This document shows, piece by piece, positions 151 to 51,973 of a stretch of DNA of 64,000 bases (the first letter of the stretch is position 1; every line of letters begins with the position of its first letter). The stretch comes from [Archangium] primigenium (lineage in GTDB: Bacteria > Myxococcota > Myxococcia > Myxococcales > Myxococcaceae): the NCBI RefSeq assembly GCF_016904885.1, contig NZ_JADWYI010000001.1, positions 7,241,224 to 7,305,223 on the forward strand, read 5' to 3'. Made by a program: the position numbers and the translations under genes. The notes beneath the pieces are model-generated. The model saw only the letters and a list, made by a program, of their open reading frames with translations, ran no database searches and was not told the DNA's origin.

Positions 151-3100
151 TCACCCGCACTCCGGCGCCCGGAACCTTACATCATCGCGATCCCGGTTCC
201 GGAATTCGCGCGCCACCTCACACCGCTCATCGTGCAGTCGCGCCTTGGACGAGGGCATGTGCTCCATTCGCTCCAGACCCGCCATGGCGTCGAGCCACAC
301 GAGCGCGAAGCGCTTGCTGGGGGGCTCGCCCTCTCGCAAGGAACGTCCCAAGGTCTGGGCCTCCGTGTAGTGATTCCGGGCCTCTTCTGGAGCGCCATTG
401 ACTTCCTGAAAGGCAGCGGAGTCGACGAGCACCCGGGCCAGGACCCAGTCTCCGTACTGATCGTGCCGCTCCTCTTGACTGCTCCGCGCGAAACCAAGCG
501 CCTTGGTGAAATGCGCTGTCGCGTCGTCGGCCTTCGCCAAGTGATGGGCGATGCCCCCCCGTGCACTGTGCGCGAGCGCGAGGAGGGCATGGTCATAGGC
601 GCTCTCGTTGCGTGCGTGGAGCATGATGGCCTCGTCCAGGTCCCGCGCGGCGGCCGGAAGGTCGCGCTTGAGCAGGCCCGCGTCCGCCCGTTCCTGAAGG
701 CTCACGGCGCGGGTCCTCCGGGCGTCCTCATCCGACTCCGAGTCGCCGGGAATCGGCATCAAGCGCACGGCCTCGTTGAAATCCACCCAGGCCTTCTCCG
801 GGTCTCCTCGTGCCAGCTCGACCTTGCCGCGCTTCGAATAATTGAGCGCCAGGAGTTCGGTGAACTTCGCATCTCCATTCCGCGAAGCACCCCAGGCCGC
901 CAGCCGTGCGTGGGCGTCCTCCAAGTACCGACCGGAACGCTCGAGCGTCTCATCATGCAGGGCGACGTCCGCCTGACGCTGAAGGAGCTTGATTCCAACG
1001 AGGCGGGCCTCGGGCGCATCGCGCTCCTCGGGAGGCAGGGAGAACAGCGCCCGTTCACTCTCCTTCAGCATCTCCTGGCGCACGGGCAGCGTGTGGGCAA
1101 TCCAACTGAGTCTCCAATCCACGCTGCCAACGAGGTCGTCCAACGTCCCGATGTACGTCCTCAGAATCGCCGTCGTGTGTTGCCGCGCCTGCTCGGCGCG
1201 GACCGCGTAGAAGAGGATGGCCAGCACCGCCAGCACCGCGCCCAGATTGAGCCACCGCTTCTGGCGCATGCGCCGCCGGTCCTCGCGCGCGCCTTCCTGG
1301 AGGTAGCGCGCCGCCAGGGCACTCAGCCGATGCCGCGTGGGCCCCTGCGAAGGACCTGACTGGTGCGCGTCCTGGTAGTGCTTGAGCAAGGTCCCCGTGC
1401 GCAGCGCATCCACCGGGAAGCCCGTGTCCCGCCAGAGCTGGGCCTCGACCTCGAGATCCTCCAGGCGCTGGAGCTGGGCGCGCTCCTCGCCAATCCATCG
1501 GGCGATGACGGGCACCTCGTGCAGCAACATCTCGTGGACCAGGTCCACGCGGGGCTGCGCGGGCTCGGTGCCCTCCGACAGGAGCACCAGTCGCATGCCC
1601 GTCGGGCCCGCGGGGTTTTCTCCCGACGCCATCCCCGACAGCCGCAGCAGCACCTGCTCCGCCGAGGAATCGCCGCCCGCGGCCGCGAGCACCTCCCCCC
1701 GCGTGCGCGGTCGGCGGGTGTCGGGCATGCCCCGGCCGATCCGCACCAGCGACAGGAGGAGCCACTTGGCCCGCTCCTGGTCCTGGCCCAGGCCCTTCAA
1801 CAGCTCCTCGGCCTGTCGGGTCAGCGCGCCGCCCACTCCCCCGAGCCGGTCATAGAGGTCGAGCGTCAAGGGCTCCCCCTGGCTCGCCTCCCAGAGTCCG
1901 CGCAGGGCGTGGCTCAGCAGGGGCAAGCGTCCGGTCTCGTCGCGCGCATCGTGCACCATGCGCTCCGCCAGCCCCTCCCCCAGGCGCAACCCCGCGCCCC
2001 GGGCCATGCCCCGGACGACCTGGGTCAGGGCGGCCTCCTCCATGGGCAACAGCAGGTAGCGCGCCGCGTGCTGGAGGTGGCGCGCGAGCGCGGGCACCTG
2101 GCTGATCCGGTCCACGAAGTCGCCCCGCACACTGGTGAGCAGCCGCAAGGGGCAGTCGGGGTCGGCCAGGGCCTCGGCGAGCAGCGCACCCAGTGCCGCG
2201 CCCTCGTCCGCGCCGGGCGTGAGGAGTTCCTCCAGGGGATCGATCACCAACAGCAGACGGTGCTCCGGCGCGAGGTGCTCGGTGACGAACGCGCGCAGGG
2301 CCTGGGGATCCGCGCGCAGCGCCTTCTCGAGGGCGCCCGGGGGCGCGCCCCCACCCGGCACTGGCAGGAGGACATCGAGCGCCTGGGCCAGGGCGCGCAG
2401 GGGCTCCTGTCCGGGCCGCACCCGGACCACCCACCAGCGCGCGTCCTGCTGGAGCCGGGGCAGCACGCCCGCCTGAAGCAGGGACGACTTGCCCACGCCG
2501 CTGGGCCCTTCGAGCTGGACCCACCGCCGCCCTCCCGCCCAGGCCTCGTCGAGCAGCCCGAGCAGGGTCTGGAGGTCCGCCTCCCGACCGAAGAACAGCT
2601 CCGCCTGGGTCTCGGTGAAGGGCGCGAGGCCCGGGACGGGACAGGTGCCCGGACCGTCCCGCCACGCGCGGCCCAGCATGTCGGCGCAGCGCCGCATCGT
2701 CGGACGCGCCGAGGGCTCCTTGGCCAGCATGGCCGTGACGAAGGCGCCCAGCTCGCCTGGAAGGGTGGGCACGAACCTCAGCGCGGAGGGCGGCTCCTTC
2801 TCCAGGTGCGCGGTGATGACCTCGATGGGCTTGGGCGACACGAAGGGCGGGCGGCCCGTGAGCAGCTCGAAGAGCACGACCCCCAGGGCGTAGACATCCG
2901 CCGGGCCCTCCACCGAGGCCGCGCTGCGCAGTTGCTCGGGCGCCATGTAGAGGTAGGTGCCCAGGAAGGCCGACTCGTGGGTGTGGATCTGCGTGGCCCC
3001 CAGGGCGTCGTCCGGCAGGGGCGGAAGCTTGGCGAGGCCGAAGTCCAGGATCTTGACGCGCGGGCCCGGGGCGGGCGCGTCCCGCTGCGCGCACAGGAAG

Positions 3101-3528
3101 ACGTTCTCCGGCTTCAGGTCACGGTGGACGATGTTCCGGGCATGCACGTCCACCATGGTGGCGGCGATCTGCCGGGCCAGGGCGAGCGCCTCCGCCAGGG
3201 GCGCGGGGCCCGCCCGTTGCCGCATCCACTCGCGCAGCGTGAGGCCCTCCAGCAGCTCCATGGCCAGGAAGACCGTTCCCTCCAGCTGCTCGCAGTCGTG
3301 GACATGGACCACGCCGGGATGGTCGAGCCGGGCCAGCGTGCGGCCCTCCTGCAGGAAGCGGGCGACGACCTGCTCCTCGCGCGCCGCCTCGGGGCGCAGC
3401 AGCTTGAGGGCCACGGGCCGCTTCAGCAGCTCGTGCTCCGCCGCGAAGACCTCGGCCATGCCGCCGCGGCCCAGCAGGTGCGAGACGCGATAGGGCCCGA
3501 TGCGGCGGGTGGGGGTCGGCTGATCCAT
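151..3528 (-). CDS. Multidomain Ser/Thr protein kinase: an N-terminal Hanks-type kinase domain, a central P-loop STAND/AAA NTPase domain (GPSGVGKSSLLQAGVLP), and C-terminal TPR-like repeats
   Basis: Kinase motifs GRGGMAEVF, VALK, HRDLKPEN, DFGLAK and APE are present, followed by a Walker A motif. Amino-acid composition is natural. The protein is 1125 aa. Confidence 0.9.
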   Translation of the reverse strand: MDQPTPTRRIGPYRVSHLLGRGGMAEVFAAEHELLKRPVALKLLRPEAAREEQVVARFLQEGRTLARLDHPGVVHVHDCEQLEGTVFLAMELLEGLTLREWMRQRAGPAPLAEALALARQIAATMVDVHARNIVHRDLKPENVFLCAQRDAPAPGPRVKILDFGLAKLPPLPDDALGATQIHTHESAFLGTYLYMAPEQLRSAASVEGPADVYALGVVLFELLTGRPPFVSPKPIEVITAHLEKEPPSALRFVPTLPGELGAFVTAMLAKEPSARPTMRRCADMLGRAWRDGPGTCPVPGLAPFTETQAELFFGREADLQTLLGLLDEAWAGGRRWVQLEGPSGVGKSSLLQAGVLPRLQQDARWWVVRVRPGQEPLRALAQALDVLLPVPGGGAPPGALEKALRADPQALRAFVTEHLAPEHRLLLVIDPLEELLTPGADEGAALGALLAEALADPDCPLRLLTSVRGDFVDRISQVPALARHLQHAARYLLLPMEEAALTQVVRGMARGAGLRLGEGLAERMVHDARDETGRLPLLSHALRGLWEASQGEPLTLDLYDRLGGVGGALTRQAEELLKGLGQDQERAKWLLLSLVRIGRGMPDTRRPRTRGEVLAAAGGDSSAEQVLLRLSGMASGENPAGPTGMRLVLLSEGTEPAQPRVDLVHEMLLHEVPVIARWIGEERAQLQRLEDLEVEAQLWRDTGFPVDALRTGTLLKHYQDAHQSGPSQGPTRHRLSALAARYLQEGAREDRRRMRQKRWLNLGAVLAVLAILFYAVRAEQARQHTTAILRTYIGTLDDLVGSVDWRLSWIAHTLPVRQEMLKESERALFSLPPEERDAPEARLVGIKLLQRQADVALHDETLERSGRYLEDAHARLAAWGASRNGDAKFTELLALNYSKRGKVELARGDPEKAWVDFNEAVRLMPIPGDSESDEDARRTRAVSLQERADAGLLKRDLPAAARDLDEAIMLHARNESAYDHALLALAHSARGGIAHHLAKADDATAHFTKALGFARSSQEERHDQYGDWVLARVLVDSAAFQEVNGAPEEARNHYTEAQTLGRSLREGEPPSKRFALVWLDAMAGLERMEHMPSSKARLHDERCEVAREFRNRDRDDVRFRAPECG

Positions 3529-3626
3529 GGATGGCGACCATGCTCCCCCCTTCTCCGGGCGGGCGCCAAGCCCACCCCACCCGGAGGCCCCTTGACTGAA
3601 CGTCCTTTCAGACCCAGTCTGGGAGG

Positions 3627-4664
3627 GTGAAGCCCCGGCCCGTCTCCAATCCGCCCAACCCCTGGGACACCACCGCCGTGGAGTACCTGGAGGAGATTCC
3701 GCCCACGAAGCTGGAGGTCCACGAGGACCACAGCCGCGAGGTGCTCGGGCGCAACGACAGCCCGGACGTGGGCTTCTCCTGGAGCGTCAACCCGTACCGC
3801 GGCTGCCTGCACGCCTGCGCCTACTGCTACGCGCGCCCCTACCACGAGTACCTCGGCTTCGGCGCGGGCACGGACTTCGAGACGAAGCTCGTCGTCAAGC
3901 CGCGCGCCGCGGAACTCCTGCGCGAGGCCTTCGAGCGCAAGAGCTGGAAGGGCGAGACGGTCGCCTTCAGCGGCATCACCGACTGCTACCAGCCCCTGGA
4001 GGCCAGCCTGCGCCTCACCCGCGCGTGCCTGGAGGTCTGCGCCGAGTACCGCAACCCCGTGGGCATCATCACCAAGGGCCCCCTCATCGAGCGCGACCTG
4101 GACGTGCTCCAGACGCTCGCCGCGCACACCCGGCTCACCGTCTGCATCACCCTGCCCTTCCACGACGCGCACGTGGCGCACGCCATGGAGCCCTCCGTGG
4201 CCTCGCCCCGCCGGCGTCTGCTCACCCTCGAGCGCCTGGCCCGGGCCGGCATCGACGTGGGCGTGGCCGTCTCGCCCATCATCCCCGGCCTCAACGACGA
4301 GGACATGGTGCGTGTGCTCACCGCCGCGCGCGAGGCGGGCGCCACCCGCGCCTTCTCCACCCTGCTGCGCCTGCCCGGCCCCGTGCAGGCCGTCTTCGAG
4401 CAGCGCCTGCGCGAGAAGCTCCCCCTGCGCGCCGAGCGGGTCCTGCACCGCATCCGGGAGACGCGGGGCGGCGAGCTCAACGACTCGCGCTTCCAGGTGC
4501 GCATGCGCGGCGAGGGGCTCTACGCCGAGACGATCCACCGGCTCTTCTCCACCACCGCGCGCCGGCTCGGGCTCAAGACGTCCATGCCCCTGGAGGAGAC
4601 GGACGCGGGCCCGAGCCCCTTTCGCCGCCCCATGAAGGCCGGCACCCAGCTCAGCTTCTTCTGA
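3627..4664 (+). CDS. Radical SAM protein, DNA-repair-photolyase-like (SplB / COG1533 / Rv2578c-like family)
   Basis: There is a CxxxCxxC motif (CLHACAYC) near the N-terminus. A GTG start lies at 3627. The protein is 345 aa with natural composition. Confidence 0.8.
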   Translation: MKPRPVSNPPNPWDTTAVEYLEEIPPTKLEVHEDHSREVLGRNDSPDVGFSWSVNPYRGCLHACAYCYARPYHEYLGFGAGTDFETKLVVKPRAAELLREAFERKSWKGETVAFSGITDCYQPLEASLRLTRACLEVCAEYRNPVGIITKGPLIERDLDVLQTLAAHTRLTVCITLPFHDAHVAHAMEPSVASPRRRLLTLERLARAGIDVGVAVSPIIPGLNDEDMVRVLTAAREAGATRAFSTLLRLPGPVQAVFEQRLREKLPLRAERVLHRIRETRGGELNDSRFQVRMRGEGLYAETIHRLFSTTARRLGLKTSMPLEETDAGPSPFRRPMKAGTQLSFF

Positions 4665-8982: not shown

Positions 8983-9197
8983 GGGGACGTCTCCTCTGGA
9001 AGAACGGACGGGCCGGAGATTGCGCCGAACGTGTGCGCGGGGGAAGCACGAAGCGTGTGGGAGCCTGCGGCCCACCCGGCCCCTGGGCGTCCGTCCCGGG
9101 GCCAATCCGGGAAAATCCTCGCGCCCCAACGAAGGGCATTGAACGGAGCCCTCCGACCCCCGGGCCATGGACACTGAATGGCGCTACGCTGCGCGCC

Positions 9198-11651
9198 ATG
9201 AGGACGAAGACCTGGTTATTTGGATTCCTGTTGGCCGTGGCCACGCTGTCGGGCTGTACCTGCGGCGGTGAGACCCCGACCCCGGGACAGATCGACAGCG
9301 GCACGGGCGGCAACGCGGGCAACGACGCGGGCACGGGCGGCGACGGCGGCGGCTCCAATGGCGGTGGCGGCTCCGATGGCGGCGCCGACGCGGGCGTGGC
9401 GCTCAAATCGCTCACCCTCTCCCCGCCCAGCCCGATCCTCACCATCTCGGGCAGCACGGCGGCCGTGCAGAAGTTCTCCGTGGTCGGCCTCTACACCGAC
9501 GGGCACACCGAGGACCTGACGTCCCAGGCCTTCTTCCGGGTCGAGGACCCCCGGCTGGGCACCTTCTCCGGCGCCACCTTCACCTCCAGCACCACCGTGG
9601 GCGGCACGAGCAACGTGCACGCCCGGGTGGACACCGCGTCCGTGTCCACCGACGTGCGCGTGCAGCTCAACCAGAAGGCCACGGACTCCAACCCGGGCTC
9701 CGCGAGCGTGCCCGTCAACCCGGACACGCGCTTTGGCGGCACGGTGGATGCCGCGCGCAAGCCCGCGATCGTCTACCCGAGCGACAAGGTCATGGTGCCG
9801 CCGAACCTCGGGCAGCTGGAGGTCCACTTCACCCCCGGCCCCACCACCAACACCCTGTTCGAGCTGCGCTTCATCAACGACATCACCGACGTGCGCGTGT
9901 ACCTGCGCTGCTACCTGCCCTCGGGTGTCACGCTGCCCGCCGGCATCAGCCGGGGCTGCATCTACACGCCGGACGCCACGGTGTGGAAGTTCCTCGCGGA
10001 GAGCAACCGCGGCGGCCAGCTGGTGACGCTCGCGCTGCGCGCCACGGATGACGCGGGCACGTCGGTGGGCGTGGCGGATCCCATCTCGCTGCAGTTCGCC
10101 CGGGCGGAGATCAAGGGCGCGCTCTACTACTGGACCACCCGGCCGGACCAGGTGGGCGTGATGCGCTACGACTTCGCGGGCACCGGGCCTCAGAGCGCCA
10201 CGTCCATGCTCACCAAGAACAACATCAACTCGAGCGGCGTGGGCTGCGTGGGCTGCCACTCGCTGAGCCGCAACGGCAAGAAGATGGTGGCCGCCGTGGA
10301 GCAGGGCAACCTGGAGGATGGCTACAACGAGGGCCAGGTGGCGCTCATCAAGGACCTGGCCAGCTACGCGCCCGACGCGGGCACGGGCAGCGCGGCGGGC
10401 ATCGCCCTGTCCTCGAAGTACCAGAGCGCCTTCGAGTCGTGGAACCCGGACGGCAGCAAGTTCGTGGGCGTCTACAGCGGTGACAACGCCACGCGCTTCG
10501 GCCTGCAGCTGTTCAACGGCGACACCGGCGCGTACGAGAGCCAGATCGACAACACGGGCACCTACGAGCACCCCGCCACCCACCCGGACTGGAGCGCCGA
10601 CGGCAAGTCGATCGCCTACACGGCGGTGGGCTACACGGGCTTCCCCTCGCAGAACCGGCGCACGTTCACGGGCGCCATCCACCTGGTGAAGGCCGAGGGC
10701 GCGGGCTGGAGCGCGCCCCTCACGGTGGCGCCGTCCGTGCCGCTCACCGCCTCCAACGCCTACGCCAAGCACCGCTACTACCCGGCCATCGCCCCGGACA
10801 ACTCGTTCCTCGTGTTCAACGAGTCCACCTGCCCCCAGAACAGCGACACGAGCCAGTACTGCAACGGCGACACGGATCCGTCCGCCACGCTCTGGGCCGC
10901 GAAGCTGGAGGCCAACGCCGCGCTGGTGGAGCTCAAGAACGCCAACAAGCCCGGGCCCACGGATGACAAGGACGGCGCGGGCGCCTTCCTCAAGAACCTC
11001 ACCAACAGCTACCCCAAGTGGAGCCCCTTCGTGACCCAGGGCAACACCGGGGCCCGCAGCCGGCTCATGTGGATGACGTTCTCGTCCTCGCGCAACTACG
11101 GCCTGCGCAAGACGCCCGAGGCCAGCGGCGCGTCCGAGGCCGACAAGAGCACGCTCCTGTGGATGGCCGCGGTGGACCCGGACAAGGTGCTCGCCGGCGA
11201 GGACGGCTCGTACGTGGCCTTCGCCCTGCCCTTCCAGGACATCACCACGTCCAACCACATCGCCCAGTGGGCCCAGTACCTCGTGAGCAACGGCTGCTCC
11301 ACGGAGAACGAGGGCTGCAACTCGAGCGGCTCCACGTGCTGCAACGGTCTGCAGTGCGTGCAGCTCAACCGGGATCCGCCCCTGCCGTGCGACATCGCGG
11401 GCGCGTGCGCGTGCCAGCCCGTGCCCCAGTGCGCCCCCGCGTTCGACAAGTGCTCCACCGTGGCGCCCTGCTGCGATGGCCTGCTCTGCCTGGATGACAC
11501 CACGGGCGGTGACTGCTCGGGCGACAACTGCTCGTGCCGTCCTCAGTGCTCCAACCGGGATCAGCCGTGCGGCAACGGCACCCCCTGCTGCGCGGGCTTC
11601 GTCTGCAACAACCTGCCCACGGGCAAGGTGTGCCGCGTGCAGCTGAACTGA
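9198..11651 (+). CDS. Large lipoprotein with an Ig-like (Big_2-like) domain, TolB/PD40-like beta-propeller repeats, and a C-terminal region carrying three knottin-like cysteine modules
   Basis: The lipobox signal is MRTKTWLFGFLLAVATLSGC. There is a Gly-rich linker, then PD40-like HPDWSADGKSIAY repeats. The last ~125 aa contain about 28 Cys arranged in a repeated C-x6-C-x5-CC-x3-4-C pattern. Confidence 0.8.
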   Translation: MRTKTWLFGFLLAVATLSGCTCGGETPTPGQIDSGTGGNAGNDAGTGGDGGGSNGGGGSDGGADAGVALKSLTLSPPSPILTISGSTAAVQKFSVVGLYTDGHTEDLTSQAFFRVEDPRLGTFSGATFTSSTTVGGTSNVHARVDTASVSTDVRVQLNQKATDSNPGSASVPVNPDTRFGGTVDAARKPAIVYPSDKVMVPPNLGQLEVHFTPGPTTNTLFELRFINDITDVRVYLRCYLPSGVTLPAGISRGCIYTPDATVWKFLAESNRGGQLVTLALRATDDAGTSVGVADPISLQFARAEIKGALYYWTTRPDQVGVMRYDFAGTGPQSATSMLTKNNINSSGVGCVGCHSLSRNGKKMVAAVEQGNLEDGYNEGQVALIKDLASYAPDAGTGSAAGIALSSKYQSAFESWNPDGSKFVGVYSGDNATRFGLQLFNGDTGAYESQIDNTGTYEHPATHPDWSADGKSIAYTAVGYTGFPSQNRRTFTGAIHLVKAEGAGWSAPLTVAPSVPLTASNAYAKHRYYPAIAPDNSFLVFNESTCPQNSDTSQYCNGDTDPSATLWAAKLEANAALVELKNANKPGPTDDKDGAGAFLKNLTNSYPKWSPFVTQGNTGARSRLMWMTFSSSRNYGLRKTPEASGASEADKSTLLWMAAVDPDKVLAGEDGSYVAFALPFQDITTSNHIAQWAQYLVSNGCSTENEGCNSSGSTCCNGLQCVQLNRDPPLPCDIAGACACQPVPQCAPAFDKCSTVAPCCDGLLCLDDTTGGDCSGDNCSCRPQCSNRDQPCGNGTPCCAGFVCNNLPTGKVCRVQLN

Positions 11652-11664
11652 AGCGCCGGGCGGC

Positions 11665-12381
11665 TCAGGGCCGGAGCACGAGGCCCTCGGCCGCCCGTTC
11701 CTCCACGGCGGCGTGGATGTGTGACACGTCCACGCCCGTGGCCGCCGCCACCTGCTCCGGCGTGAGCCCCTCCAGGGCCATCTTGAGCACCAGCAGCGCC
11801 CGGTCGTCCGCCGCCAGGTACATCGTCACCAGCCGCACCGGGTGCCGCCAGAGCAGCGCCACCTCGGCGCCCGGCGCGGGCCGCGCGTCGCCGCCCCGCC
11901 GCAGCCAGGCGCACAGCTGGAAGGGATGCTCCAGCACCGCCAGCGTGGGGTTCACCGTCAGCCGCTCCACGCGCGCCGGGACGGCCTCCCGGGACAGGTA
12001 CACCGCGAAGTCCGTCCACTCGAAGCGCGCCAGCGCGGGCAGGAAGTCCGGGAGCGTGCGCGTCCGGGCCGCGTCCGCGACGAAGTCCGGGAAGCCCGCG
12101 CCCACCTGGTTCATCTCGAAGGGCCGGGCGGGCCGCGACGCCGCGTAGTCGCGCACCAGCTCCGCCCAGGTCTGTGCGTCCACGCTCCCGCGCACCCGTG
12201 GGAAGAGCTTGTCGAGCGTGGCGTCCCCATGGTGGCGCACCATCTGGCCATAGAGCGCCACCCGCGCGCGCGGCGCGTCCCAACCCGGGTGGGCCGCGTA
12301 CAGGCGCTCCAGGGCCTCGGGCGCGGGGTCCGTGAAGTAGGCCTCCATGGTGTCGAAGAAGCCGCGCAGGCCGGGCTTCAT
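11665..12381 (-). CDS. DUF2063 family protein (the MbnC/TglI/BufC-type partner of DUF692 enzymes)
   Basis: The start MKPGLRGFFDTMEAY overlaps the stop of the upstream DUF692 gene by 4 nt (ATGA). The ORF track shows a spurious N-terminal extension to 12522. Confidence 0.8.
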   Translation of the reverse strand: MKPGLRGFFDTMEAYFTDPAPEALERLYAAHPGWDAPRARVALYGQMVRHHGDATLDKLFPRVRGSVDAQTWAELVRDYAASRPARPFEMNQVGAGFPDFVADAARTRTLPDFLPALARFEWTDFAVYLSREAVPARVERLTVNPTLAVLEHPFQLCAWLRRGGDARPAPGAEVALLWRHPVRLVTMYLAADDRALLVLKMALEGLTPEQVAAATGVDVSHIHAAVEERAAEGLVLRP

Positions 12382-13226
12382 CGCGCCCCCACCCGCGCCA
12401 TCAGCGCGCGCGCCCGATCCGCCTCGTCCAGCACCGCGTCCAGCGAGGGGATGTGCGCATCCCACTCGATGAGCGTGGACACGGGGCCCGTGCGCTCGAG
12501 CACGTACTGGTACAGCGACCACACCTCGTCGCAGACGGGCGCGCCGTGCGTGTCGAGCAGCACCTCCGGCAGGCGCTCGTGGCCGGCCAGGTGGAGCTGC
12601 CCCACGCGCTCGAGCGGCAGCGCGTCCACGAAGGCGCGCGGGTCATACCCGTGGTTGCACGCGTTCACGTACACGTTGTTCACGTCCAGCAGCAGGCCAC
12701 AGTCCGCCTGCTCCACCACGTGCCGCAGGAAGTCCGCCTCCGCCAGGGTGCCGCCGGGCATGTGCGCGTAGTAGCTCGGGTTCTCCAGCAGGAAGGGGCG
12801 GCCCACGCGCGCCTGGACTTCCCGCACCCGGGGCACCACGTGCTCCACCGCCTCCTCGCTGAAGGGCAAGGGCAGCAGATCGTAGAGGTACGCGCCGCCC
12901 AACCGCGCGTAGCAGAGGTGATCCGAGAAGAACGGCGCGTCCACGCGCTCCACCAGGGACTGGAGGCCGACGAGGTAGTCCTCGTCCAGGGGATCCGGCC
13001 CGCCGACGTTGAGCGCCACGCCGTGGGGCAGCACGGGCCAGCGCTCGCGGCAGGCGTCCAGGGTGGCCTGGGGTCGGCCGCCCAGGGTGAGGAAGTTCTC
13101 GGGGATGATCTCCACCCAGTCGAGCGCCCGGCGCGTCTCCGGCAGGAGCGTGTAGAACTCGCGGCGCAGGCCGATGCCCACCCCCAGCGGCTTCATCCTC
13201 CAGCGCTGTCCACCACTCACCGGCAT
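12378..13226 (-). CDS. DUF692 / UPF0276 family protein (MbnB/TglH-like multinuclear non-heme iron oxidative enzyme, MNIO)
   Basis: GVGIGLRREF...WVEIIPENF...FFSDHLCY...LLENPSYY...LLDVNNVYVNACNHGYDP...IEWD matches conserved DUF692 blocks. Start candidates are ATG 13226 (GGAGAAAGGG RBS) and ATG 13196. Confidence 0.85.
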   Translation of the reverse strand: MPVSGGQRWRMKPLGVGIGLRREFYTLLPETRRALDWVEIIPENFLTLGGRPQATLDACRERWPVLPHGVALNVGGPDPLDEDYLVGLQSLVERVDAPFFSDHLCYARLGGAYLYDLLPLPFSEEAVEHVVPRVREVQARVGRPFLLENPSYYAHMPGGTLAEADFLRHVVEQADCGLLLDVNNVYVNACNHGYDPRAFVDALPLERVGQLHLAGHERLPEVLLDTHGAPVCDEVWSLYQYVLERTGPVSTLIEWDAHIPSLDAVLDEADRARALMARVGAR

Positions 13227-13294
13227 GCCCTTTCTCCTGGGGAAGGACTCCGGGCGGCGGACCGGGGGGAAGCTGCCCGCCGCCCGAGAGTGGA

Positions 13295-13561
13295 CTACTT
13301 CTTGCCGCCGCAGCCGCTGGAGCCGCAACCGCCGCCGCCACAGCCGTGCTCGGCCGCCTTCTCGGCGGCGGGGGCCGCGGCCCCCTGGGCGGGAGCCGCG
13401 CTGGCGCCGTGCTCCATGGGGGCCATGGGGGCGGCCTGCTCCATCGCGGCGGGGGTGCCCTGCTCCATGGGCGCCGCGGCGGGCTTGGTGGTCGCGCAGC
13501 CGGTGGCCAGCGAGCCGAGGGAGAGGGAGCCAACGAGCGCGGTCAGGGTCTTCACGTTCAT
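13295..13561 (-). CDS. Putative RiPP precursor / small secreted lipoprotein-signal peptide (88 aa) with Met/His-rich repeats and a C-terminal Cys-Gly-rich tail
   Basis: The translation is MNVKTLTALVGSLSLGSLATGC (lipobox)...PMEQGTPAAMEQAAPMAPMEHGASAAP...AEHGCGGGGCGSSGCGGKK. It lies immediately upstream of, and co-directional with, the DUF692-DUF2063 pair (68 nt gap). Confidence 0.6.
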   Translation of the reverse strand: MNVKTLTALVGSLSLGSLATGCATTKPAAAPMEQGTPAAMEQAAPMAPMEHGASAAPAQGAAAPAAEKAAEHGCGGGGCGSSGCGGKK

Positions 13562-13987
13562 GAGACGGGGCCTTTCGGGCAGGGGCGGCAGGGCCTTCGC
13601 GACAGGCGAAGGGTCCGCTCCGGCACTCATACGCCACCTGAACCCCCGGGGTTACAGCCCCCGCTCGACCGGCCCCCGTGGGAGGCGCCCGGCCCGGGTC
13701 ATGCCGCGCGGTGTCAAACCCGGCCCCCGGTAAACCCCTCAGGTAAAATTTGACAGCCCCCTGGCCTCCCGTCCAAGGCGCGTGGGAGGCCCTCTCCCTC
13801 TTGGAGAATCGAGCACTTAGGCATCCATCCCGGGAGGAAGCCGGGAAGACCGGTCGGTAACGTCGGATCCCGGACAGGGGTGATCGCGGCTGAAAACGTT
13901 TATTGCAAATCGGTAAATGCGACCGCACAGTGGACGGAGGCGGAGGGTAACCGGCGGTTGACGCGGGGTCCCGCCCAGGACGCAGCG

Positions 13988-15529
13988 ATGAACGAGAACG
14001 CACTGAACGCCAATGTGGGTCTGAAACTCCGGGGCCTGCGGCTCGCGCGCAACATCAAGCAGACGGACGCGGCCAAGGATCTGGGAGTGTCCCCGGCGTA
14101 CCTGAACCTCATCGAGAAGGGCAAACGGGTCATGCCCTTCCCGCTGTTGTGGAAGGCGCTGCGCTACTTCGACCAGGATCCCGAGCAGTTCATGTCCACC
14201 CTGGGCGAGGGCCGGGTGGACGAGGCGCTCGCGAAGCTGCTGGACGAGCCGCTGCTCAAGAGCCTGGACATCGACTCGGAGTCGCTGCAGAGCCTGTCGG
14301 CGGAGCCGAAGCTCGCGGGCACCGTGGCGGCGCTCTTCAACCTCTACAAGAACACGCGCACGCAGTTGGAGAACGTGCTCGCGCAGCTCAACGTGGAGGA
14401 GAGCGCGCGGATGAACTCGGCGCCGCCGGGCAACTCGGCCGGGCCCCGCTTCGACTACTCGCCCTTCGACGAGGTGAGTGACTTCCTGGAGGCCCACCAC
14501 AACTACTTCCCGGAGCTGGAGGAGCAGGCCGAGTCGATGCGGCGCGACTTCAAGCTCGGGCGGCTGGTGTCCAGCCCCCAGCTGTTGCCGCTGTTGGAGG
14601 AACGCTTCGGCTACCGGATGCGCCTGGAGTCCGCGCCCAGTGGCTCCTCGGTGGTGCGCCGCCTGGACGCGGGGAGTCAGGAGCTCACGCTCTCGCCGGA
14701 CCTGACGGAGCAGCCGCTCAAGTTCCAGCTCGCCGCCTCCATTGGCCTGCTCATGCTGGACAAGGAGAAGCTGGTGGAGCGCATCGTCGGCGCGGCGCGC
14801 ACGCGGCACGCCGAGACGCTGCGGCTCATCAAGGTGCACCTGGCCAACTACTTCGCCGGCGCGCTGATGCTGCCCTACGGGGACTTCTTCAAGGAAGTGG
14901 AGCGCACGCGCTACGACGTGGAGCTCCTGTCCAACCTCTTCGGCACCACGTACGAGACGGTGGCCCACCGGCTGTGCAACCTGTCGGACCCCAAGCGCCG
15001 GGGCCTGCCCTTCCACTTCCTGCGCTCGGACATCGCGGGCAACATCTCCAAGCGCTACAGCGGCACGGGCATCAAGTTCGCCTCGGGCGGCGGCTCGTGC
15101 GGCAAGTGGGCCGTGCACCTGGCCTTCCTCAACCCCTCGCAGCTCACCCGGCAGTACTCGATGATGCCGGACGGCACCTCGTACTTCTGCTTCGCCAAGG
15201 TGCAGCTGCAGCCCATCGAGGGCTCCATCGTGCGCGGCTCGGCCTACTCCATCGGCCTGGGCACCCACGCGGAGAACGCCAAGTACCTGGCGTATGGCCT
15301 GCCCACCACGGACCTGCGCAAGGACGCGGTCCCCAGCGGCATCTCCTGCCGCTTCTGCGAGCGCACCGACTGCAACCAGCGCGCGGCCGCCAGCTACCGC
15401 TTCGCCTTCTCCATCGACGAGTACACCAAGAAGGACTGCTTCTTCTCGCCCCTGCTCGTGCACGAGGCCGGGCGGGCGGAATCGCTGGACAAGACGCTGC
15501 GGCGCCGTAACAAGGGCGAGGAGAACTGA
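13988..15529 (+). CDS. XRE-family HTH transcriptional regulator with a C-terminal DUF2083-like domain (ScfR/PrpR/RamB-like short-chain fatty acyl-CoA regulator family)
   Basis: There is an N-terminal HTH (LRGLRLARNIKQTDAAKDLGVSPAYLNLIEKGKR), then a long conserved domain ending in Cys motifs (CGKW..., CRFCERTDC). It is divergent from the precursor/DUF692 operon. Confidence 0.8.
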   Translation: MNENALNANVGLKLRGLRLARNIKQTDAAKDLGVSPAYLNLIEKGKRVMPFPLLWKALRYFDQDPEQFMSTLGEGRVDEALAKLLDEPLLKSLDIDSESLQSLSAEPKLAGTVAALFNLYKNTRTQLENVLAQLNVEESARMNSAPPGNSAGPRFDYSPFDEVSDFLEAHHNYFPELEEQAESMRRDFKLGRLVSSPQLLPLLEERFGYRMRLESAPSGSSVVRRLDAGSQELTLSPDLTEQPLKFQLAASIGLLMLDKEKLVERIVGAARTRHAETLRLIKVHLANYFAGALMLPYGDFFKEVERTRYDVELLSNLFGTTYETVAHRLCNLSDPKRRGLPFHFLRSDIAGNISKRYSGTGIKFASGGGSCGKWAVHLAFLNPSQLTRQYSMMPDGTSYFCFAKVQLQPIEGSIVRGSAYSIGLGTHAENAKYLAYGLPTTDLRKDAVPSGISCRFCERTDCNQRAAASYRFAFSIDEYTKKDCFFSPLLVHEAGRAESLDKTLRRRNKGEEN

Positions 15530-38181: not shown

Positions 38182-38418
38182 TCACGCCTCCGGCAGCGGG
38201 CTCACCCGGGGCGTGCCGAGCAGCTCCAGGGTGCGCGCCGCCACGCGGTTGAGCAGCTGGGCACAGGGCTCGCACCCGCCGCCGCAGCAGCGGGGCCAGT
38301 GCCCCTCGGGATTGCGCACGAGGGGCCGGACACACGCCTCGTAATACGAGGCCAGCCTCAGCTCCTCGCTCGCGCGGTGCACCGCGTCGTTCAACTCCGC
38401 CTCGCTGACGTCGCTCAT
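38182..38418 (-). CDS. Small oxidoreductase-like-domain protein (CCxxGCxxC), translationally coupled to rtcA
   Basis: In MSDVSEAELNDAVHRASEELRLASYYEACVRP...PRCCGGGCEPCAQ, the ATG overlaps the rtcA stop (ATGA). The Oxidored-like P..CC.SGC..C motif is present. Confidence 0.55.
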   Translation of the reverse strand: MSDVSEAELNDAVHRASEELRLASYYEACVRPLVRNPEGHWPRCCGGGCEPCAQLLNRVAARTLELLGTPRVSPLPEA

Positions 38419-39434
38419 CCCCGGCCCACCACCACTTCCCGCACCCGGGGCGAGACCTCCCGGACCGTCACCGGGACGTCGATGAAGTGCCGGAACGTCT
38501 CGATCTGCGTGAGCGCGTGCCCCTCCAGCGGCAGCGTCCGGAACGCGCCGCCTCCCGCCAGCGCGAGCAAGAGCAGGAGCTGATCCGCCAGGTGCTGTCC
38601 CACGGGAACCTCGGCCTCCAGGTAGGCCCGCGCCTCCTCCACCACTGCCTCGGCGACCGCCTCCGCCCGCACGCCCCGCTCGCCAAACGCCGTGAACACC
38701 TCGGTGACGTGCTCGCTCTCCACCGCCAGGGCCAGCGCGTTGCCGGGGCCAATGGGCCGCTTCACCTCCTCCACCCGCCGCTCCTCCGCCGCCCACCCGA
38801 GCACCCGCCCCACCGTGGTCAGCTCGCGCTGCGCCACCTCGAAGGGCACCTGGGCGATGAGCGCCGTGGCCATGCGCCGCACCACCTTGCCCCGCTCCAG
38901 CAAGTGCAGCGGCTGGAGGGGCGCGGGCCGCACGTCCACCCGGAACTTCCCGCCTCCCGCGGGGAAGAAGCCCGGCCGCTCCAGCGTGGCCTCCACCGAG
39001 GGCCCCATCCGGCGCACGAGCGGCAGGTACGCCTGGGCGAGGAAGTCGAACGGCGGCGCCGCCGGGTTGTGCGTCCCGCCCTCCAGCACCAGCGAGGACG
39101 GCGCGCCCGCGCTCAGGAGCGCCGGCAGCACCGTCTGCAGCACCAGCGTGGCGCTGCCCGCCGTGCCCACCGCGAAGTGGTAGTCCCCCGGTTTCACGGC
39201 TCGGGGCCGGAACGTCAGCGCCCGCGAACCCAGCTCGGCGCCCTCCACCTCCGCGCCGCCCACCTCGGCCGCCGCCTTCACCGACGTGAGGTGCTGGCGC
39301 AGCAGCCCCGGCTTGGCGCGCCCCGCGCGGATGTTCTCCATCTGGAACGGCGCGCCCGTCACCAGCGACAGCGCCAACGACGTGCGCAGCACCTGCCCGC
39401 CGCCCTCGCCCTTCGATCCATCGATGCGAATCAT
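38415..39434 (-). CDS. rtcA: RNA 3'-terminal phosphate cyclase
   Basis: MIRIDGSKGEGGGQVLRTSLALS...GGTHNPAAPPFDF is characteristic of RtcA. Confidence 0.9.
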   Translation of the reverse strand: MIRIDGSKGEGGGQVLRTSLALSLVTGAPFQMENIRAGRAKPGLLRQHLTSVKAAAEVGGAEVEGAELGSRALTFRPRAVKPGDYHFAVGTAGSATLVLQTVLPALLSAGAPSSLVLEGGTHNPAAPPFDFLAQAYLPLVRRMGPSVEATLERPGFFPAGGGKFRVDVRPAPLQPLHLLERGKVVRRMATALIAQVPFEVAQRELTTVGRVLGWAAEERRVEEVKRPIGPGNALALAVESEHVTEVFTAFGERGVRAEAVAEAVVEEARAYLEAEVPVGQHLADQLLLLLALAGGGAFRTLPLEGHALTQIETFRHFIDVPVTVREVSPRVREVVVGRG

Positions 39435-39600
39435 GACCTCTCCCTCCCTGCTCTACCCTTGCCCGCACGTAGCGACGCCCACTCCCTCATCCTACTGACC
39501 GGAGTCAGCGGAGGGAGCGGGCGTCTCGGTGGATCTATCCCCTCATGGCGGCCTCCCGGGCTCGAGGTGGGTTCATGACGCAAGCCTCATGACGCGGCGC

Positions 39601-40851: not shown

Positions 40852-40905
40852 GGCCTGCTCCTTCGAGGATGTCCGCCCGGTCTCGCCGGGCACGTGAGGA
40901 GGTAG

Positions 40906-40921
40906 AGCAGGAGCCGTGCCA
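40906..40921 (-). promoter_or_regulatory. Predicted sigma-54 (-24/-12) promoter driving rtcBA
   Basis: The minus-strand sequence TGGCACGGCTCCTGCT matches TGGCACG-N4-TTGCW. GG and GC are correctly spaced, and the only mismatch is T to C at -15. It sits about 45 nt upstream of the rtcB ATG. The RtcR enhancer-binding protein gene is adjacent. Confidence 0.5.
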
Positions 40922-41117
40922 GACCCCCTTCCCTCGGGACACGCCAGGCCCGGGTTCCCTTTCCTATCCCTGGGAATAAATCCCTATCCGGAGGGCGAAG
41001 ACGGAGAAGATGGATGCATAACCCATCGATTTTCCTGGAATCCACGCCTTGACTTATTGGGGGCCCAACAACAGGGTAGACCCGTAAAACCATCAATTCA
41101 CGTTTCGGGAGAGACCC

Positions 41118-42191: not shown

Positions 42192-42235
42192 CGCCCCGCG
42201 TCCCCCGCGCGCCTGGCGTATAAACTCCGCTCCGC

Positions 42236-45719: not shown

Positions 45720-45814
45720 CCAGAAGAGGCCCCGAGGCTAACAGGGCCCGAGGAGGAGCGGATTGCCCTCCCGACGAGCGCCGTGGTACCTCCGCGTCAC
45801 AGCCCGGGCGGAAA

Positions 45815-45833
45815 GATTCACGCGTCGTGAATC
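45815..45833 (+). promoter_or_regulatory. Perfect 8-bp inverted repeat GATTCACG-cgt-CGTGAATC, 32 nt upstream of the first giant gene's start codon. It is a candidate operator or regulator-binding site
   Basis: The palindrome is visible in the sequence. The surrounding ~45 nt (GCGGAAAGWT...CCGCG.GA.GG) are conserved upstream of the second paralog at 51921-51965, where the palindrome is degenerate (TCCAC-acatc-GTGGA at 51929-51943). Confidence 0.35.
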
Positions 45834-45864
45834 CGCGCGACGGGTGGCCCAAAGGGGGGAAGCG

Positions 45865-51828: not shown

Positions 51829-51973
51829 CAGGCCCCGCGCCCTCGTCGCGTCCCGGGCGGGAGCAGGCGGTTTGCGCTCCCGACGGGCCGCATGGTACCC
51901 CCCCCTCGACACAACCGAAGCGGAAAGTTCCACACATCGTGGACTTCCGCGAGCGGTATCCCGAGGGGGGACC

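What the first reader, a model, noticed from the sequence alone, without database searches (positions are those of the whole stretch)
13295..13561. The precursor peptide combines a lipobox signal, copper-like Met/His repeats and a C-terminal EHGCGGGGCGSSGCGGKK tail
The translation is MNVKTLTALVGSLSLGSLATGC | ATTKPAAA PMEQGTP AAMEQAAPMAPMEHGASAAPAQGAAAPAAEKAA | EHGCGGGGCGSSGCGGKK. It has three features:
- A lipoprotein-type signal (LATG-C). Bufferin/oxazolin precursors are Sec-exported, so export is a shared property.
- Reiterated P-M-E-Q/H units with M-x-x-M spacing, which resemble Cu(I)-binding Met motifs.
- Three Cys, each embedded in a Gly context (C-G-G). EHGCG resembles the EGKCG core that MNIO enzymes convert in oxazolin-type precursors.
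The encoding DNA (13295-13350) is a near-pure GGC/TGC/GGT run. The combination suggests a periplasmic or lipid-anchored copper or other metal-binding peptide whose Cys are enzymatically modified.
Basis: partly seen in the sequence, partly recalled or inferred. Interest (0 to 1): 0.7.

Follow-up and report, generated by a model that had tools for sequence, protein, structure and literature searches.

The report
Lipoprotein-type bufferin-like metallophore precursor
This small myxobacterial gene encodes an exported, probably lipid-anchored peptide whose C-terminal cysteines are most likely converted by the neighbouring iron enzyme into metal-binding rings; it is an unnamed myxobacterial branch of the recently described bufferin/oxazolin class, not a new kind of system.

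Summary
It heads a compact operon: precursor, MNIO enzyme (passes NCBI's BufB equivalog cut-off), DUF2063 partner.

About 118 sequence clusters from Myxococcaceae, Archangiaceae and soil metagenomes form one unnamed family. Its conserved features are:
- an LATG|C lipobox;
- an E-K-x-x-E-x-x-C-G core;
- at least two C-terminal Cys spaced CxxxxC.

The window's tail reads EHGCG/GGGCG/SSGCG. It is in the same 5-residue register as the EGKCG repeats of oxazolins, and one ortholog carries EGKCGEGKCGEGKCG at that position.

The Met/His units are a 24-nt tandem repeat found only in a six-member subclade. They sit where most orthologs carry Cys-bearing EKGxExxC units.

Two more conserved elements:
- GTAACC-N16-CGTA upstream, one base from the Caulobacter sigma-F site that drives bufferin operons, in 43 of 55 loci;
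- a GC-rich hairpin between precursor and enzyme genes.

Lipidated EGKCG peptides (NedA) and 5-thiooxazole chemistry are already published, so this is a new member of a known kind. The window peptide itself fails the HvfA models. Chemistry, lipidation and metal binding remain untested.

The parts
13630..13656 (-). ECF-type promoter-like motif TGTAACC-N16-CGTA, 69-95 nt upstream of the start codon
   Evidence: One match in the 64-kb window against 0 in 100 shuffles. The motif GTAAC[CGT]-N15-17-CG[TA]A is found upstream of the operon in 43 of 55 related loci. It differs by one base from the C. crescentus sigma-F site GTAACC-N16-CGAA, which drives both bufferin operons (PMC3511200). Function is inferred.
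13571..13576 (-). Shine-Dalgarno-like GAAAGG, 9 nt before the ATG at 13561
   Evidence: Read from the sequence. GAAAGGAA is the most conserved 8-mer upstream of the ortholog precursors, in 29 of 32 loci examined.
13295..13561 (-). Precursor peptide gene, 88 aa plus stop
   Evidence: Translation. GC3 0.955. 100% identical protein in Archangium primigenium. Conserved with synteny in more than 55 loci.
13496..13561 (-). Lipoprotein signal peptide (residues 1-21) and lipobox Cys22 (codon 13496-13498)
   Evidence: PS51257-type rule met. M1, K4, V10, G11, S14, L18, G21 and C22 are invariant in alignment A1. The only helix in the AF2 model is residues 3-14.
13403..13476 (-). 24-nt tandem repeat (2.9 copies) encoding the PMEQ / AMEQ / PMAPMEH units
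   Evidence: TRF score 81, 74% matches. In A1 these units align with the EKGxExxC repeat units of orthologs. Restricted to a 6-member subclade.
13298..13351 (-). Predicted core: E71-H-G-C74-G / G-G-G-C79-G / S-S-G-C84-G, then G-K-K (three 5-residue xxxCG units)
   Evidence: C74 is invariant; C79 and K68 are at least 90% conserved. CxxxxC in 59 of 60 orthologs. Against L082 the tail differs mostly by synonymous changes, while the middle differs mostly by non-synonymous ones.
13247..13291 (-). GC-rich hairpin (12-bp core stem CGGGCGGCGGGC/GTCCGCCGCCCG) between the precursor and MNIO genes
   Evidence: MFE fold. The same GGGCGG core was found in 50 of 54 intergenic regions; two of these (L047, L048) lack the matching 3' arm. 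In most orthologs a T-rich tail follows; in the window it does not. Consensus structure has 12 pairs, with the outer stem invariant and 3 pairs showing compensatory changes. A role as attenuator or mRNA stabiliser is inferred.
12378..13226 (-). MNIO (DUF692) enzyme, 282 aa
   Evidence: NF050167 MNIO_BufB 325.4 bits (cut-off 310); PF05114 348.8 bits. Best solved relative is 3BWW, E 5e-61. GLRR and EWD motifs are present.
11665..12381 (-). DUF2063 partner protein (PME-type 1 / HvfC-like), 238 aa; its start overlaps the MNIO stop by 4 nt
   Evidence: PF09836 48.5 bits (cut-off 27.2). HvfC NF050145 53.5 bits, below its cut-off of 142. N-terminal domain of SbtM (TIGR04082) E 1e-18. Present after the MNIO in all Myxococcaceae/Archangiaceae loci that extend far enough.

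Best explanation
The ORF is the precursor (A gene) of a three-gene bufferin/captophorin-type RiPP operon: precursor, MNIO, DUF2063 partner.

Proposed course of events:
1. Transcription starts from an ECF-type promoter (GTAACC-N16-CGTA). This is probably served by a sigma-F-like, stress- or metal-responsive sigma factor encoded elsewhere. A conserved hairpin after the precursor gene probably keeps precursor mRNA in excess over enzyme mRNA.
2. In the cytoplasm the MNIO-partner heterodimer recognises the conserved E-K-x-x-E-x-x-C-G region. It oxidises the Gly-flanked Cys74, Cys79 and Cys84 (three tandem xxxCG pentamers) to 5-thiooxazoles, with an expected loss of 4 Da each.
3. The peptide is exported by Sec. 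Lgt, LspA and Lnt process the LATG|C lipobox, leaving a triacylated Cys22 with a disordered Ala/Pro/Gly-rich tether about 50 residues long and the modified tail at its end.
4. The tail chelates Cu(I), or another soft metal, at the envelope and so buffers metal stress.

Shown here: the gene, its conservation, the operon, the motifs and the family placement of the enzymes.
Inferred from characterised relatives: the chemistry, the lipidation, the metal and the regulation.

The Met/His units are a subclade-specific replacement of the internal Cys-bearing repeat units. They are not a core part of the mechanism.
For: Gene reality:
- Correct frame by GC3.
- 118 family clusters.
- Invariant signal-peptide and Cys positions.
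- Synonymous-biased change in the tail.

Operon:
- The MNIO passes the BufB equivalog cut-off and the DUF2063 partner overlaps its stop codon.
- The trio is syntenic in all Myxococcaceae/Archangiaceae loci.

Substrate logic:
- Cys is followed by Gly in 149 of 225 cases and Glu sits at -3 in 124 of 225.
- FonBC strongly prefers a small residue after Cys, tolerates Lys to Ala/Thr at position 3 and needs at least 2 repeats.
- The Arg-Arg pair that binds the Glu is kept in 58 of 58 myxobacterial MNIOs.
- The residue that corresponds by alignment to 3BWW to the proposed catalytic Asp is kept.

Register: ortholog L015 has EGKCGEGKCGEGKCG at the same place.

Chemistry in relatives: all characterised MNIO-PME1 systems install 5-thiooxazole.

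Lipidation in a relative: NedA, with an SPII signal and 3 EGKCG units, was isolated triacylated with a -12 Da shift.

Regulation: the motif is conserved in 43 of 55 loci and is one base from the sigma-F site of the Caulobacter bufferin operons.

Disorder: outside the signal helix the AF2 model has no secondary structure, with pLDDT about 50.
Against: - There are no experimental data for this family.
- The window peptide matches no HvfA/BufA model even at E<=10.
- The MNIO misses the HvfB cut-off (290.6 < 360) and the partner misses the HvfC cut-off (53.5 < 142).
- No DoxX, ECF sigma, NrsF or copper-resistance gene lies in the 64-kb window.
- Pentamers 2 and 3 lack the Glu and all three lack the Lys of EGKCG.
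- At the specificity position after the catalytic Asp the enzyme has Ala, where Lys-Cys enzymes have Phe. Its Cys selectivity is therefore not predictable from FonB.
- In the window the hairpin lacks a U-tract, and the terminator scan did not call it.
- The Caulobacter sigma-F regulon was defined under chromate and cadmium stress, not copper specifically.
- The AF2 run used a single sequence, so its low confidence is weak evidence.
Confidence: 0.68

Rival explanations
1. Same precursor and enzymes, but the physiological role is not copper buffering. The modified lipopeptide would respond to another soft metal or to oxidative or chlorine stress, or serve as a redox-active envelope thiol.
For: The promoter resembles sigma-F/BcrS-type ECF sites. 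Those regulons were defined under chromate, cadmium and hypochlorous acid stress. No copper gene lies nearby. [quoted passage not shown]
Against: Every characterised MNIO-PME1 product tested so far binds copper.
Confidence: 0.25
2. The Met/His units are functional Cu(I) sites (thioether/imidazole ligands). In this subclade they replaced the internal Cys-derived sites and act together with the C-terminal thiooxazoles.
For: The units occupy the alignment positions of the EKGxExxC units of orthologs. Met persists, at shifting positions, across subclade members that are only 61-67% identical: P0004, P0005 and P0090. Met makes up 5.4% of the mature part there against 0.25% elsewhere. The MNIO specificity residue also differs in this subclade: Ala or Asn instead of Gln.
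Against: There is only one MxxM. The units arise from a recent 24-nt tandem duplication. The linker evolves fast, with 27 non-synonymous against 11 synonymous codon differences versus L082. The nearest MNIO relatives, L001 and L005, have Met-free linkers. The six sequences are phylogenetically related, so the enrichment may be a single event.
Confidence: 0.2
3. The MNIO performs a different reaction on these Gly-flanked Cys, such as oxazolone-thioamide formation, cross-linking or beta-carbon excision, rather than 5-thiooxazole formation.
For: MNIOs are chemically diverse (Table 1). The residue after the catalytic Asp is Ala or Gln, unlike both characterised groups. The peptide fails the HvfA models.
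Against: The enzyme passes the BufB equivalog cut-off and scores far below MbnB, ApyH and ChrH. Closely related MNIOs paired with DUF2063 partners all give 5-thiooxazole, and the earlier oxazolone assignment for oxazolin was revised.
Confidence: 0.1
4. The peptide is an ordinary small lipoprotein or a metallothionein-like thiolate peptide that merely lies next to the MNIO genes and is not their substrate.
For: No model hit for the peptide. Its low-complexity composition led sources to label family members 'uncharacterized low-complexity protein'.
Against: The position directly upstream of MNIO-DUF2063 is invariant in more than 55 loci, while the outer neighbours change. The Cys context is conserved and matches the known substrate preferences. 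No other candidate precursor lies in the operon.
Confidence: 0.05
5. The ORF is a chance open frame in GC-rich DNA and is not translated.
For: High-GC genomes carry many spurious ORFs (one search lists several overlapping ones).
Against: Frame-specific GC3 of 0.955. A conserved ribosome-binding site. Protein-level conservation of the signal peptide and Cys tail across genera, with synonymous changes in the tail.
Confidence: 0.02

Closest known systems
NedA / lipo-NedABC of Neisseria dentiae (RiPP-lipoprotein; PNAS 2026, PMC13056109)
   Same: SPII lipobox signal and three tandem Cys-Gly pentamers near the C-terminus, next to an MNIO and a DUF2063-type partner. The NedA product was isolated triacylated, with -4 Da per Cys.
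   Different: NedA has canonical EGKCG units, whereas the window has EHGCG/GGGCG/SSGCG with no Lys. The window peptive carries a linker about 50 residues long with Met/His units, comes from a different phylum (Myxococcota), and has nothing tested experimentally.
Buf_EGKCG / oxazolin / fontiphorin / gonophorin family (HvfA, FonA, NgoA)
   Same: Sec-exported precursors with 5-residue Cys repeats, modified by a BufB/HvfB-type MNIO with a DUF2063 partner into Cu-binding 5-thiooxazoles. The MNIO Arg-Arg pair and catalytic Asp are kept. The best solved relative of the MNIO is 3BWW, from this group.
   Different: The window peptide gives no hit to NF050137 or NF050188, and orthologs reach only 14-18 bits against a cut-off of 19.5. 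The HvfB and HvfC cut-offs are not reached. Ala replaces the Phe that contacts Lys3/Gly5. There is no DoxX gene. The published Buf_EGKCG HMM found nothing in Stigmatella aurantiaca.
Bufferins BufA1 (DUF2282) and BufA2 (6/12-Cys) of Caulobacter and others
   Same: The MNIO meets the BufB equivalog model. The operon order is A-B-C. The precursor is Sec-exported. The promoter is sigma-F-type. About 16% of Buf2 precursors are predicted lipoproteins.
   Different: BufA1 and BufA2 are folded Cys-containing domains. This peptide has no DUF2282 or BufA2 match and no predicted fold.
'CxxxxC' signal-peptide precursors (Leprevost et al. 2025) and lipoprotein 'Cluster X' (PNAS 2026)
   Same: A signal peptide or lipobox plus a conserved CxxxxC next to MNIO-DUF2063. 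The window has C74-x4-C79-x4-C84.
   Different: In that family 54% of clusters carry a Lactamase_B_2 gene, and DoxX is part of the core. Neither is present here. The HMM and the member lists are not available in the held texts, so identity with this family could not be tested.
Methanobactin (MbnA/MbnB/MbnC)
   Same: An MNIO acts on Cys of a ribosomal peptide to make a copper ligand.
   Different: MbnB model scores 50.2 bits against a cut-off of 325. Methanobactin has a leader peptide rather than a Sec/lipoprotein signal, an MbnC rather than a DUF2063 partner, oxazolone-thioamide chemistry, and a secreted copper-acquisition role.

Membership tests
Bufferin/captophorin-type MNIO-PME1 RiPP cluster | MNIO enzyme of the BufB/HvfB clade | tested here: met
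   NF050167 MNIO_BufB 325.4 bits against a cut-off of 310; PF05114 348.8 bits.
Bufferin/captophorin-type MNIO-PME1 RiPP cluster | Adjacent DUF2063 (PME-type 1) partner | tested here: met
   PF09836 48.5 bits against 27.2. Its start overlaps the MNIO stop. Conserved in orthologs.
Bufferin/captophorin-type MNIO-PME1 RiPP cluster | Cys-containing precursor with an N-terminal Sec-type signal, directly upstream of the MNIO | tested here: met
   Lipobox rule met with Cys22; three core Cys; 68-nt gap to the MNIO gene. SignalP and LipoP were not available.
Bufferin/captophorin-type MNIO-PME1 RiPP cluster | Conserved MNIO catalytic Asp and substrate-binding Arg pair | tested here: met
   GLRR and EWD motifs align with 3BWW RR and ERD. 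Roles are taken from FonB. The full iron-ligand set was checked only at motif level.
Bufferin/captophorin-type MNIO-PME1 RiPP cluster | DoxX gene in the cluster (frequent, not universal) | tested here: not met
   No DoxX among the Pfam hits for ORFs across the window.
Bufferin/captophorin-type MNIO-PME1 RiPP cluster | Cys converted to 5-thiooxazole (-4 Da, about 305 nm) | not testable with these tools
   Needs MS, UV and NMR on the co-expressed product.
Bufferin/captophorin-type MNIO-PME1 RiPP cluster | Copper binding and protection under metal stress | not testable with these tools
   Needs native MS and mutant phenotypes.
Bufferin/captophorin-type MNIO-PME1 RiPP cluster | Control by a sigma-F/NrsF-type ECF system (common, not universal) | tested here: inconclusive
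   GTAACC-N16-CGTA is present and conserved and is close to the sigma-F site. No sigma or anti-sigma gene lies in the window.
Buf_EGKCG / HvfA (oxazolin) precursor family | Match to NF050137 (KCGExKCG_twice, cut-off 19.5) or NF050188 (HvfA, cut-off 95) | tested here: not met
   The window peptide gives no hit at E<=10. Orthologs score 18.3, 18.1 and 14.2 bits.
Buf_EGKCG / HvfA (oxazolin) precursor family | Tandem 5-residue repeats with Cys at position 4 and Gly at position 5 | tested here: met
   EHGCG/GGGCG/SSGCG. Ortholog L015 has EGKCG x3 at the aligned position.
Buf_EGKCG / HvfA (oxazolin) precursor family | Glu at position 1 and Lys at position 3 of each repeat | tested here: not met
   Only the first unit has Glu, and none has Lys.
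Buf_EGKCG / HvfA (oxazolin) precursor family | Cognate MNIO and partner reach the HvfB and HvfC equivalog scores; Phe follows the catalytic Asp | tested here: not met
   HvfB 290.6 < 360 and HvfC 53.5 < 142. EWD-A here against ERD-F in 3BWW.
RiPP-lipoproteins (SPII-exported MNIO products) | Lipobox with an invariant Cys at the signal-peptide cleavage site | tested here: met
   L-A-T-G-C22; 115 of 118 family clusters pass the rule.
RiPP-lipoproteins (SPII-exported MNIO products) | Triacylated N-terminal Cys in the mature product | not testable with these tools
   Needs lipoprotein extraction and MS/MS, as was done for NedA.
'CxxxxC' MNIO precursor family / lipoprotein Cluster X | Conserved CxxxxC motif after a signal peptide | tested here: met
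   C74-x4-C79-x4-C84; 59 of 60 orthologs.
'CxxxxC' MNIO precursor family / lipoprotein Cluster X | Match to the authors' CxxxxC HMM or presence in their member list | not testable with these tools
   The HMM and lists are not held.
MYXO-CTERM sorting signal (considered because of the Gly/Cys-rich C-terminus in a myxobacterium) | Cys-containing motif followed by a hydrophobic helix and a basic tail (definition recalled from my own knowledge of TIGR03901) | tested here: not met
   The peptide ends GCGGKK with no hydrophobic segment. No such NCBIfam hit at E<=10.
Methanobactin system | MbnB equivalog and a leader-peptide precursor | tested here: not met
   TIGR04159 50.2 bits against a cut-off of 325. 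The precursor has a lipoprotein signal instead of a leader.

The most novel reading that the evidence does not exclude
In this small subclade (Archangium primigenium, Melittangium boletus and a few soil relatives) the two internal Cys-bearing EKGxExxC units have been replaced by Met/His units spread by a 24-nt tandem duplication. At the same time the MNIO changed its substrate-contact residue from Gln to Ala or Asn. The product would be a lipid-anchored hybrid chalkophore, in which thioether and imidazole ligands on the tether cooperate with three Gly-flanked 5-thiooxazoles. That would be a natural experiment in swapping enzymatically made ligands for genetically encoded ones.
Probability: 0.18. 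Interest if true: 0.55.

Novelty: new member of a known kind. Interest (0 to 1): 0.36.

Why it matters
Bufferins, oxazolins and captophorins are a very large class of copper-binding RiPPs recognised only recently. Lipid-anchored versions were shown experimentally only in 2026.

This locus adds a family that is conserved across the Myxococcaceae and Archangiaceae genomes sampled here and that the published precursor signatures miss. Its minimal core is two or three xxxCG pentamers on a disordered lipid-anchored tether. It has no DoxX gene, and it has a clearly conserved promoter and an intergenic hairpin.

That makes it a compact, tractable system for three questions:
- How few repeats and which flanking residues an MNIO needs.
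- How the enzyme spares the lipobox Cys.
- What sigma factor controls such operons outside Pseudomonadota.

It does not change the current picture of how these systems work.

Tried and rejected
- Pfam and NCBIfam on the peptide at default and at E<=10: only signal-peptide-level noise such as entericidin B and Lpp. No family name can be assigned.
- MYXO-CTERM sorting signal: rejected, because no hydrophobic segment follows the Cys.
- Sigma-70 promoter and intrinsic-terminator scans of 11500-14000: nothing relevant. The conserved hairpin is not called because the window copy lacks a T-run.
- Rfam at E<=1 on 11500-14000: no RNA family.
- Search of the window for DoxX, an ECF sigma, NrsF or copper genes: none.
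- CorE/CorE2 promoter consensus of M. xanthus: it exists only in figures, so no comparison was possible.
- Supplements of the two survey papers searched for myxobacterial members: the PNAS supplement is not held. The Microbial Genomics tables are truncated and gave only the indirect Stigmatella row.
- dN/dS against the closest relative (L081): too few differences to be informative, 4 synonymous against 4 non-synonymous.
- Solved structures for the DUF2063 partner: no sequence hit.
- Literature search for Myxococcus plus DUF692: nothing on this operon.
Full report
**1. Observation**

The window has about 70% GC. The ORF's third-position GC is 0.955, against 0.69 and 0.68 in the other two frames, which is the signature of real genes here.

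A GAAAGG ribosome-binding site lies 9 nt before the ATG. A longer in-frame ORF starts at 13630. That ATG lies inside the -10 element of the conserved promoter motif, so it is probably not on the mRNA; this is an inference.

The N-terminus meets the PROSITE-type lipoprotein rule, with Lys4, an uncharged h-region, L-A-T-G-C and Cys at position 22.

Met32, 40, 46, 49 and His51 form PMEQ, AMEQ and PMAPMEH. Their DNA is a 24-nt tandem repeat of 2.9 copies at 13403-13476.

The tail has Cys74, Cys79 and Cys84, each followed by Gly. They lie in a strict five-residue register: EHGCG, GGGCG, SSGCG.

**2. Context**

Directly downstream lie two genes:
- A 282-aa MNIO (13226..12378). It scores above NCBI's curated cut-off for the bufferin maturase BufB (325.4 against 310 bits) but below the cut-off for HvfB (290.6 against 360).
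- A 238-aa DUF2063 protein (12381..11665), whose start overlaps the MNIO stop.

The MNIO's closest solved relative is 3BWW from Histophilus somni (E 5e-61). The captophorin preprint cites that entry as a solved MNIO whose genomic region points to RiPP biosynthesis.

The operon ends against a convergent 872-aa lipoprotein gene. It is preceded by a divergent XRE/M78/ScfR regulator gene. Pfam scans of the other ORFs in the 64-kb window found no DoxX, ECF sigma factor, NrsF or copper-resistance gene.

**3. Relatives**

The peptide is 100% identical to a hypothetical protein of Archangium primigenium.

A scan of species-representative genomes with the MNIO returned 80 loci. In essentially all Myxococcaceae and Archangiaceae loci a small ORF with the same signal peptide precedes the MNIO, and a DUF2063 gene follows it. 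The outer neighbours vary.

Among 60 unique orthologous peptides:
- all have a lipobox (56 of them LATGC);
- all have at least two Cys in the last 22 residues;
- 59 have CxxxxC;
- Cys is followed by Gly in 149 of 225 cases;
- Cys has Glu at -3 in 124 of 225 cases.

In the alignment the invariant positions are M1, K4, V10, G11, S14, L18, G21, C22 and C74. C79 and K68 are at least 90% conserved.

A profile search found 118 clusters at 90% identity. All those carrying an organism name are from Myxococcaceae or Archangiaceae; the rest are unnamed metagenome sequences. None has a Pfam domain. Their sources call them 'hypothetical protein', 'Lipoprotein' or 'uncharacterized low-complexity protein'.

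Against a soil relative (L082) the signal peptide and tail differ mostly by synonymous changes. The middle differs mostly by non-synonymous ones.

**4. What the middle is**

Most orthologs carry one to several internal units of the form x-E-K-G-x-E-x-x-C-[GKS]. In the alignment the window's PMEQG and PMEHG units fall on those units, but without the Cys.

Two or more Met residues in the mature part occur only in six related clusters (P0001-P0005 and P0090). There the Met fraction is 5.4%, against 0.25% in the other 112.

The nearest MNIO relatives, Cystobacter loci L001 and L005, also lack internal Cys and have no Met. The Met/His repeats are therefore lineage-specific and are not a family signature. 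Whether they bind metal cannot be decided from sequence.

**5. Relation to EGKCG peptides**

The five-residue spacing of the tail equals that of EGKCG repeats. One ortholog, L015, has EGKCGEGKCGEGKCG at the aligned place.

NCBI's HvfA-family domain model NF050137 has a cut-off of 19.5 bits. Three orthologs score 18.3, 18.1 and 14.2 bits. The window peptide does not score at all at E<=10.

The published genome survey lists Stigmatella aurantiaca with three MNIO genes and one DUF2063 gene but no Buf1, Buf2 or Buf_EGKCG precursor. A member of the present family is found in a Stigmatella genome (P0078). The family therefore seems to be missed by the current signatures.

[quoted passage not shown] It may also coincide with the uncharacterised lipoprotein 'Cluster X' with a CxxxxC motif. 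I could not check this, because the member lists are not held.

**6. Enzyme-substrate consistency**

For FonBC the following were shown:
- At least two repeats are needed.
- A small residue after Cys is strongly preferred.
- Lys at position 3 can be Ala or Thr.
- Arg15 and Arg16 contact the Glu at position 1.
- Asp249 is the proposed catalytic base.
- Phe250 contacts Lys3 and Gly5 (Asp takes this place in Cys-Lys enzymes).

The window MNIO keeps the Arg-Arg pair, as do 58 of 58 myxobacterial orthologs. It also keeps the Asp. The next residue is Ala. It is Gln in 61 orthologs, Asn in L082 and Phe in 3BWW. Site equivalence rests on the 3BWW alignment and is an inference.

This fits a Cys context with small flanking residues and no Lys. 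It also marks these enzymes as a separate specificity group.

**7. Regulation and expression signals**

The motif TGTAACC-N16-CGTA lies 69-95 nt upstream of the start codon. It is unique in the window, with 0 matches expected from shuffles.

The same motif lies directly upstream of the precursor in 23 of 55 related loci. In 20 more it lies upstream of a secreted YceI-like gene that there precedes the precursor.

It differs by one base from GTAACC-N16-CGAA. That is the experimentally defined sigma-F site in front of both Caulobacter DUF2282-DUF692-DUF2063 (bufferin) operons.

Between the precursor and MNIO genes lies a 12-bp GC stem (13247-13291). Its GGGCGG core was found in 50 of 54 orthologous intergenic regions. 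Two of these (L047, L048) lack the matching 3' arm. In most orthologs a T-rich tail follows; the window has none. I read it as an attenuator or a 3' stabiliser that raises the precursor:enzyme ratio. This is inferred and not shown. The window copy was not called by the terminator scan, and its folding z-score is only -1.75.

**8. Mechanism proposed**

What is known of relatives:
- All characterised MNIO-DUF2063 systems convert Cys to 5-thiooxazole and bind copper.
- The lipobox-bearing EGKCG peptide NedA is triacylated and loses 4 Da per Cys.

On that basis the most likely course has four steps:
1. Stress-induced transcription.
2. Cytoplasmic oxidation of Cys74, Cys79 and Cys84 by the MNIO-partner complex, which spares Cys22.
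3. Sec export and Lgt/LspA/Lnt processing at Cys22.
4. Display of a metal-chelating tail on a disordered tether. Outside the signal helix the AF2 single-sequence model shows no structure.

The steps from chemistry onward are inferred.

**9. Comparison and novelty**

The system works like lipidated EGKCG-type bufferins (captophorins). It meets the enzyme-level definitions of that class. It fails the precursor-level HvfA models, it lacks DoxX, and it has a different specificity residue.

Every element of the concept is already published: Sec- or SPII-exported MNIO substrates, 5-thiooxazoles, and diverse unnamed Cys-rich precursors. I therefore rate it a new member of a known kind, with moderate interest. 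Its value is as a minimal, well-conserved myxobacterial model, and for the unresolved question of the Met/His substitution.

Noticed in passing
window 30864-33326 (-): An 820-aa protein has strong matches to eukaryote-type Major Vault Protein domains: MVP_shoulder 2.4e-44 and Vault repeats 1e-30 to 1e-32. It is a bacterial vault-protein homolog and lies next to a DUF7660 gene (30579-30842).
   Followed up: no
L014-L016, L019, L020, L024, L025, L028, L031, L033, L034, L036, L040-L044, L050, L053, L054 (about 650-800 nt upstream of the precursor): In Myxococcus, Corallococcus, Hyalangium and Pyxidicoccus loci a secreted YceI-like protein (PF04264, 8e-23) is inserted between the GTAACC-N16-CGTA motif and the precursor. 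The operon there is apparently yceI-precursor-MNIO-DUF2063. The window lacks this gene.
   Followed up: partly
L055 (about 3570-3970), L058, L063, L064, L067, L068 (upstream of the MNIO): In Polyangia and Paraliomyxa loci the MNIO is preceded by lipobox-bearing proteins with tandem 'AGCP(T/A)' or 'GGCPA' pentamers, so Cys is followed by Pro. Some are fused to a domain of about 150 aa containing CxxCH. FonBC does not tolerate Pro in its repeats, so this may be a separate substrate class.
   Followed up: no
window 12378-13226 (-), residue after the EWD motif; L001-L082: At the MNIO position after the catalytic Asp the residue is Ala in the window and L081, Asn in L082, Gln in 61 myxobacterial orthologs, and Ala again in distant loci with Cys-Lys-type precursors. 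This may be co-variation with the Cys context of the precursor.
   Followed up: partly
L004/L032 (Archangium minus), L035/L052 (Cystobacter fuscus): Some genomes carry two paralogous operons. The second type (L032, L035, P0010) has 6-10 Cys in GGEASCGEG(S/T)CSGK units, only 4-21 nt between precursor and MNIO, and neither the hairpin nor the promoter motif.
   Followed up: partly
window 9033-11651 (+): A convergent 872-aa predicted lipoprotein (LSGC) has a weak PD40/TolB-like repeat match and a Cys-rich C-terminal region of about 100 aa with repeated C-x-C/CC motifs. Pfam gives only that weak PD40 match and NCBIfam gives no hit. It is found downstream of the operon in 10 Archangium/Vitiosangium loci.
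   Followed up: partly
window 13577-13629 (-); L081, L082: The presumed 5' UTR holds a conserved block GCGGACCCTTCGCC(T)nTCGCG. In the window and L081 it contains a 7-bp inverted repeat, CCTTCGC/GCGAAGG. The block is only partly kept in L082, and there is no Rfam match.
   Followed up: no
L002-L012 (about 2100-3560), e.g. L009 2131-3555 (+): In the Archangium gephyra/violaceum-type loci a 474-aa secreted protein with an HELLH (HExxH) metallopeptidase motif is inserted between the RamB-like regulator and the precursor, in the same orientation as the precursor. The window lacks it.
   Followed up: no
window 45763-57928 (+): Two consecutive giant ORFs of 2021 and 2070 aa. The first was scanned and has cadherin-like, PKD, HYR and Big_9 domains, so it looks like a surface adhesin.
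   Followed up: no
window 38415-43855: A complete Rtc RNA-repair module: RtcA cyclase and RtcB ligase on the minus strand, and the sigma-54 activator RtcR on the plus strand. Also an nSTAND1 NTPase fused to a Ser/Thr kinase at 151-3528.
   Followed up: no
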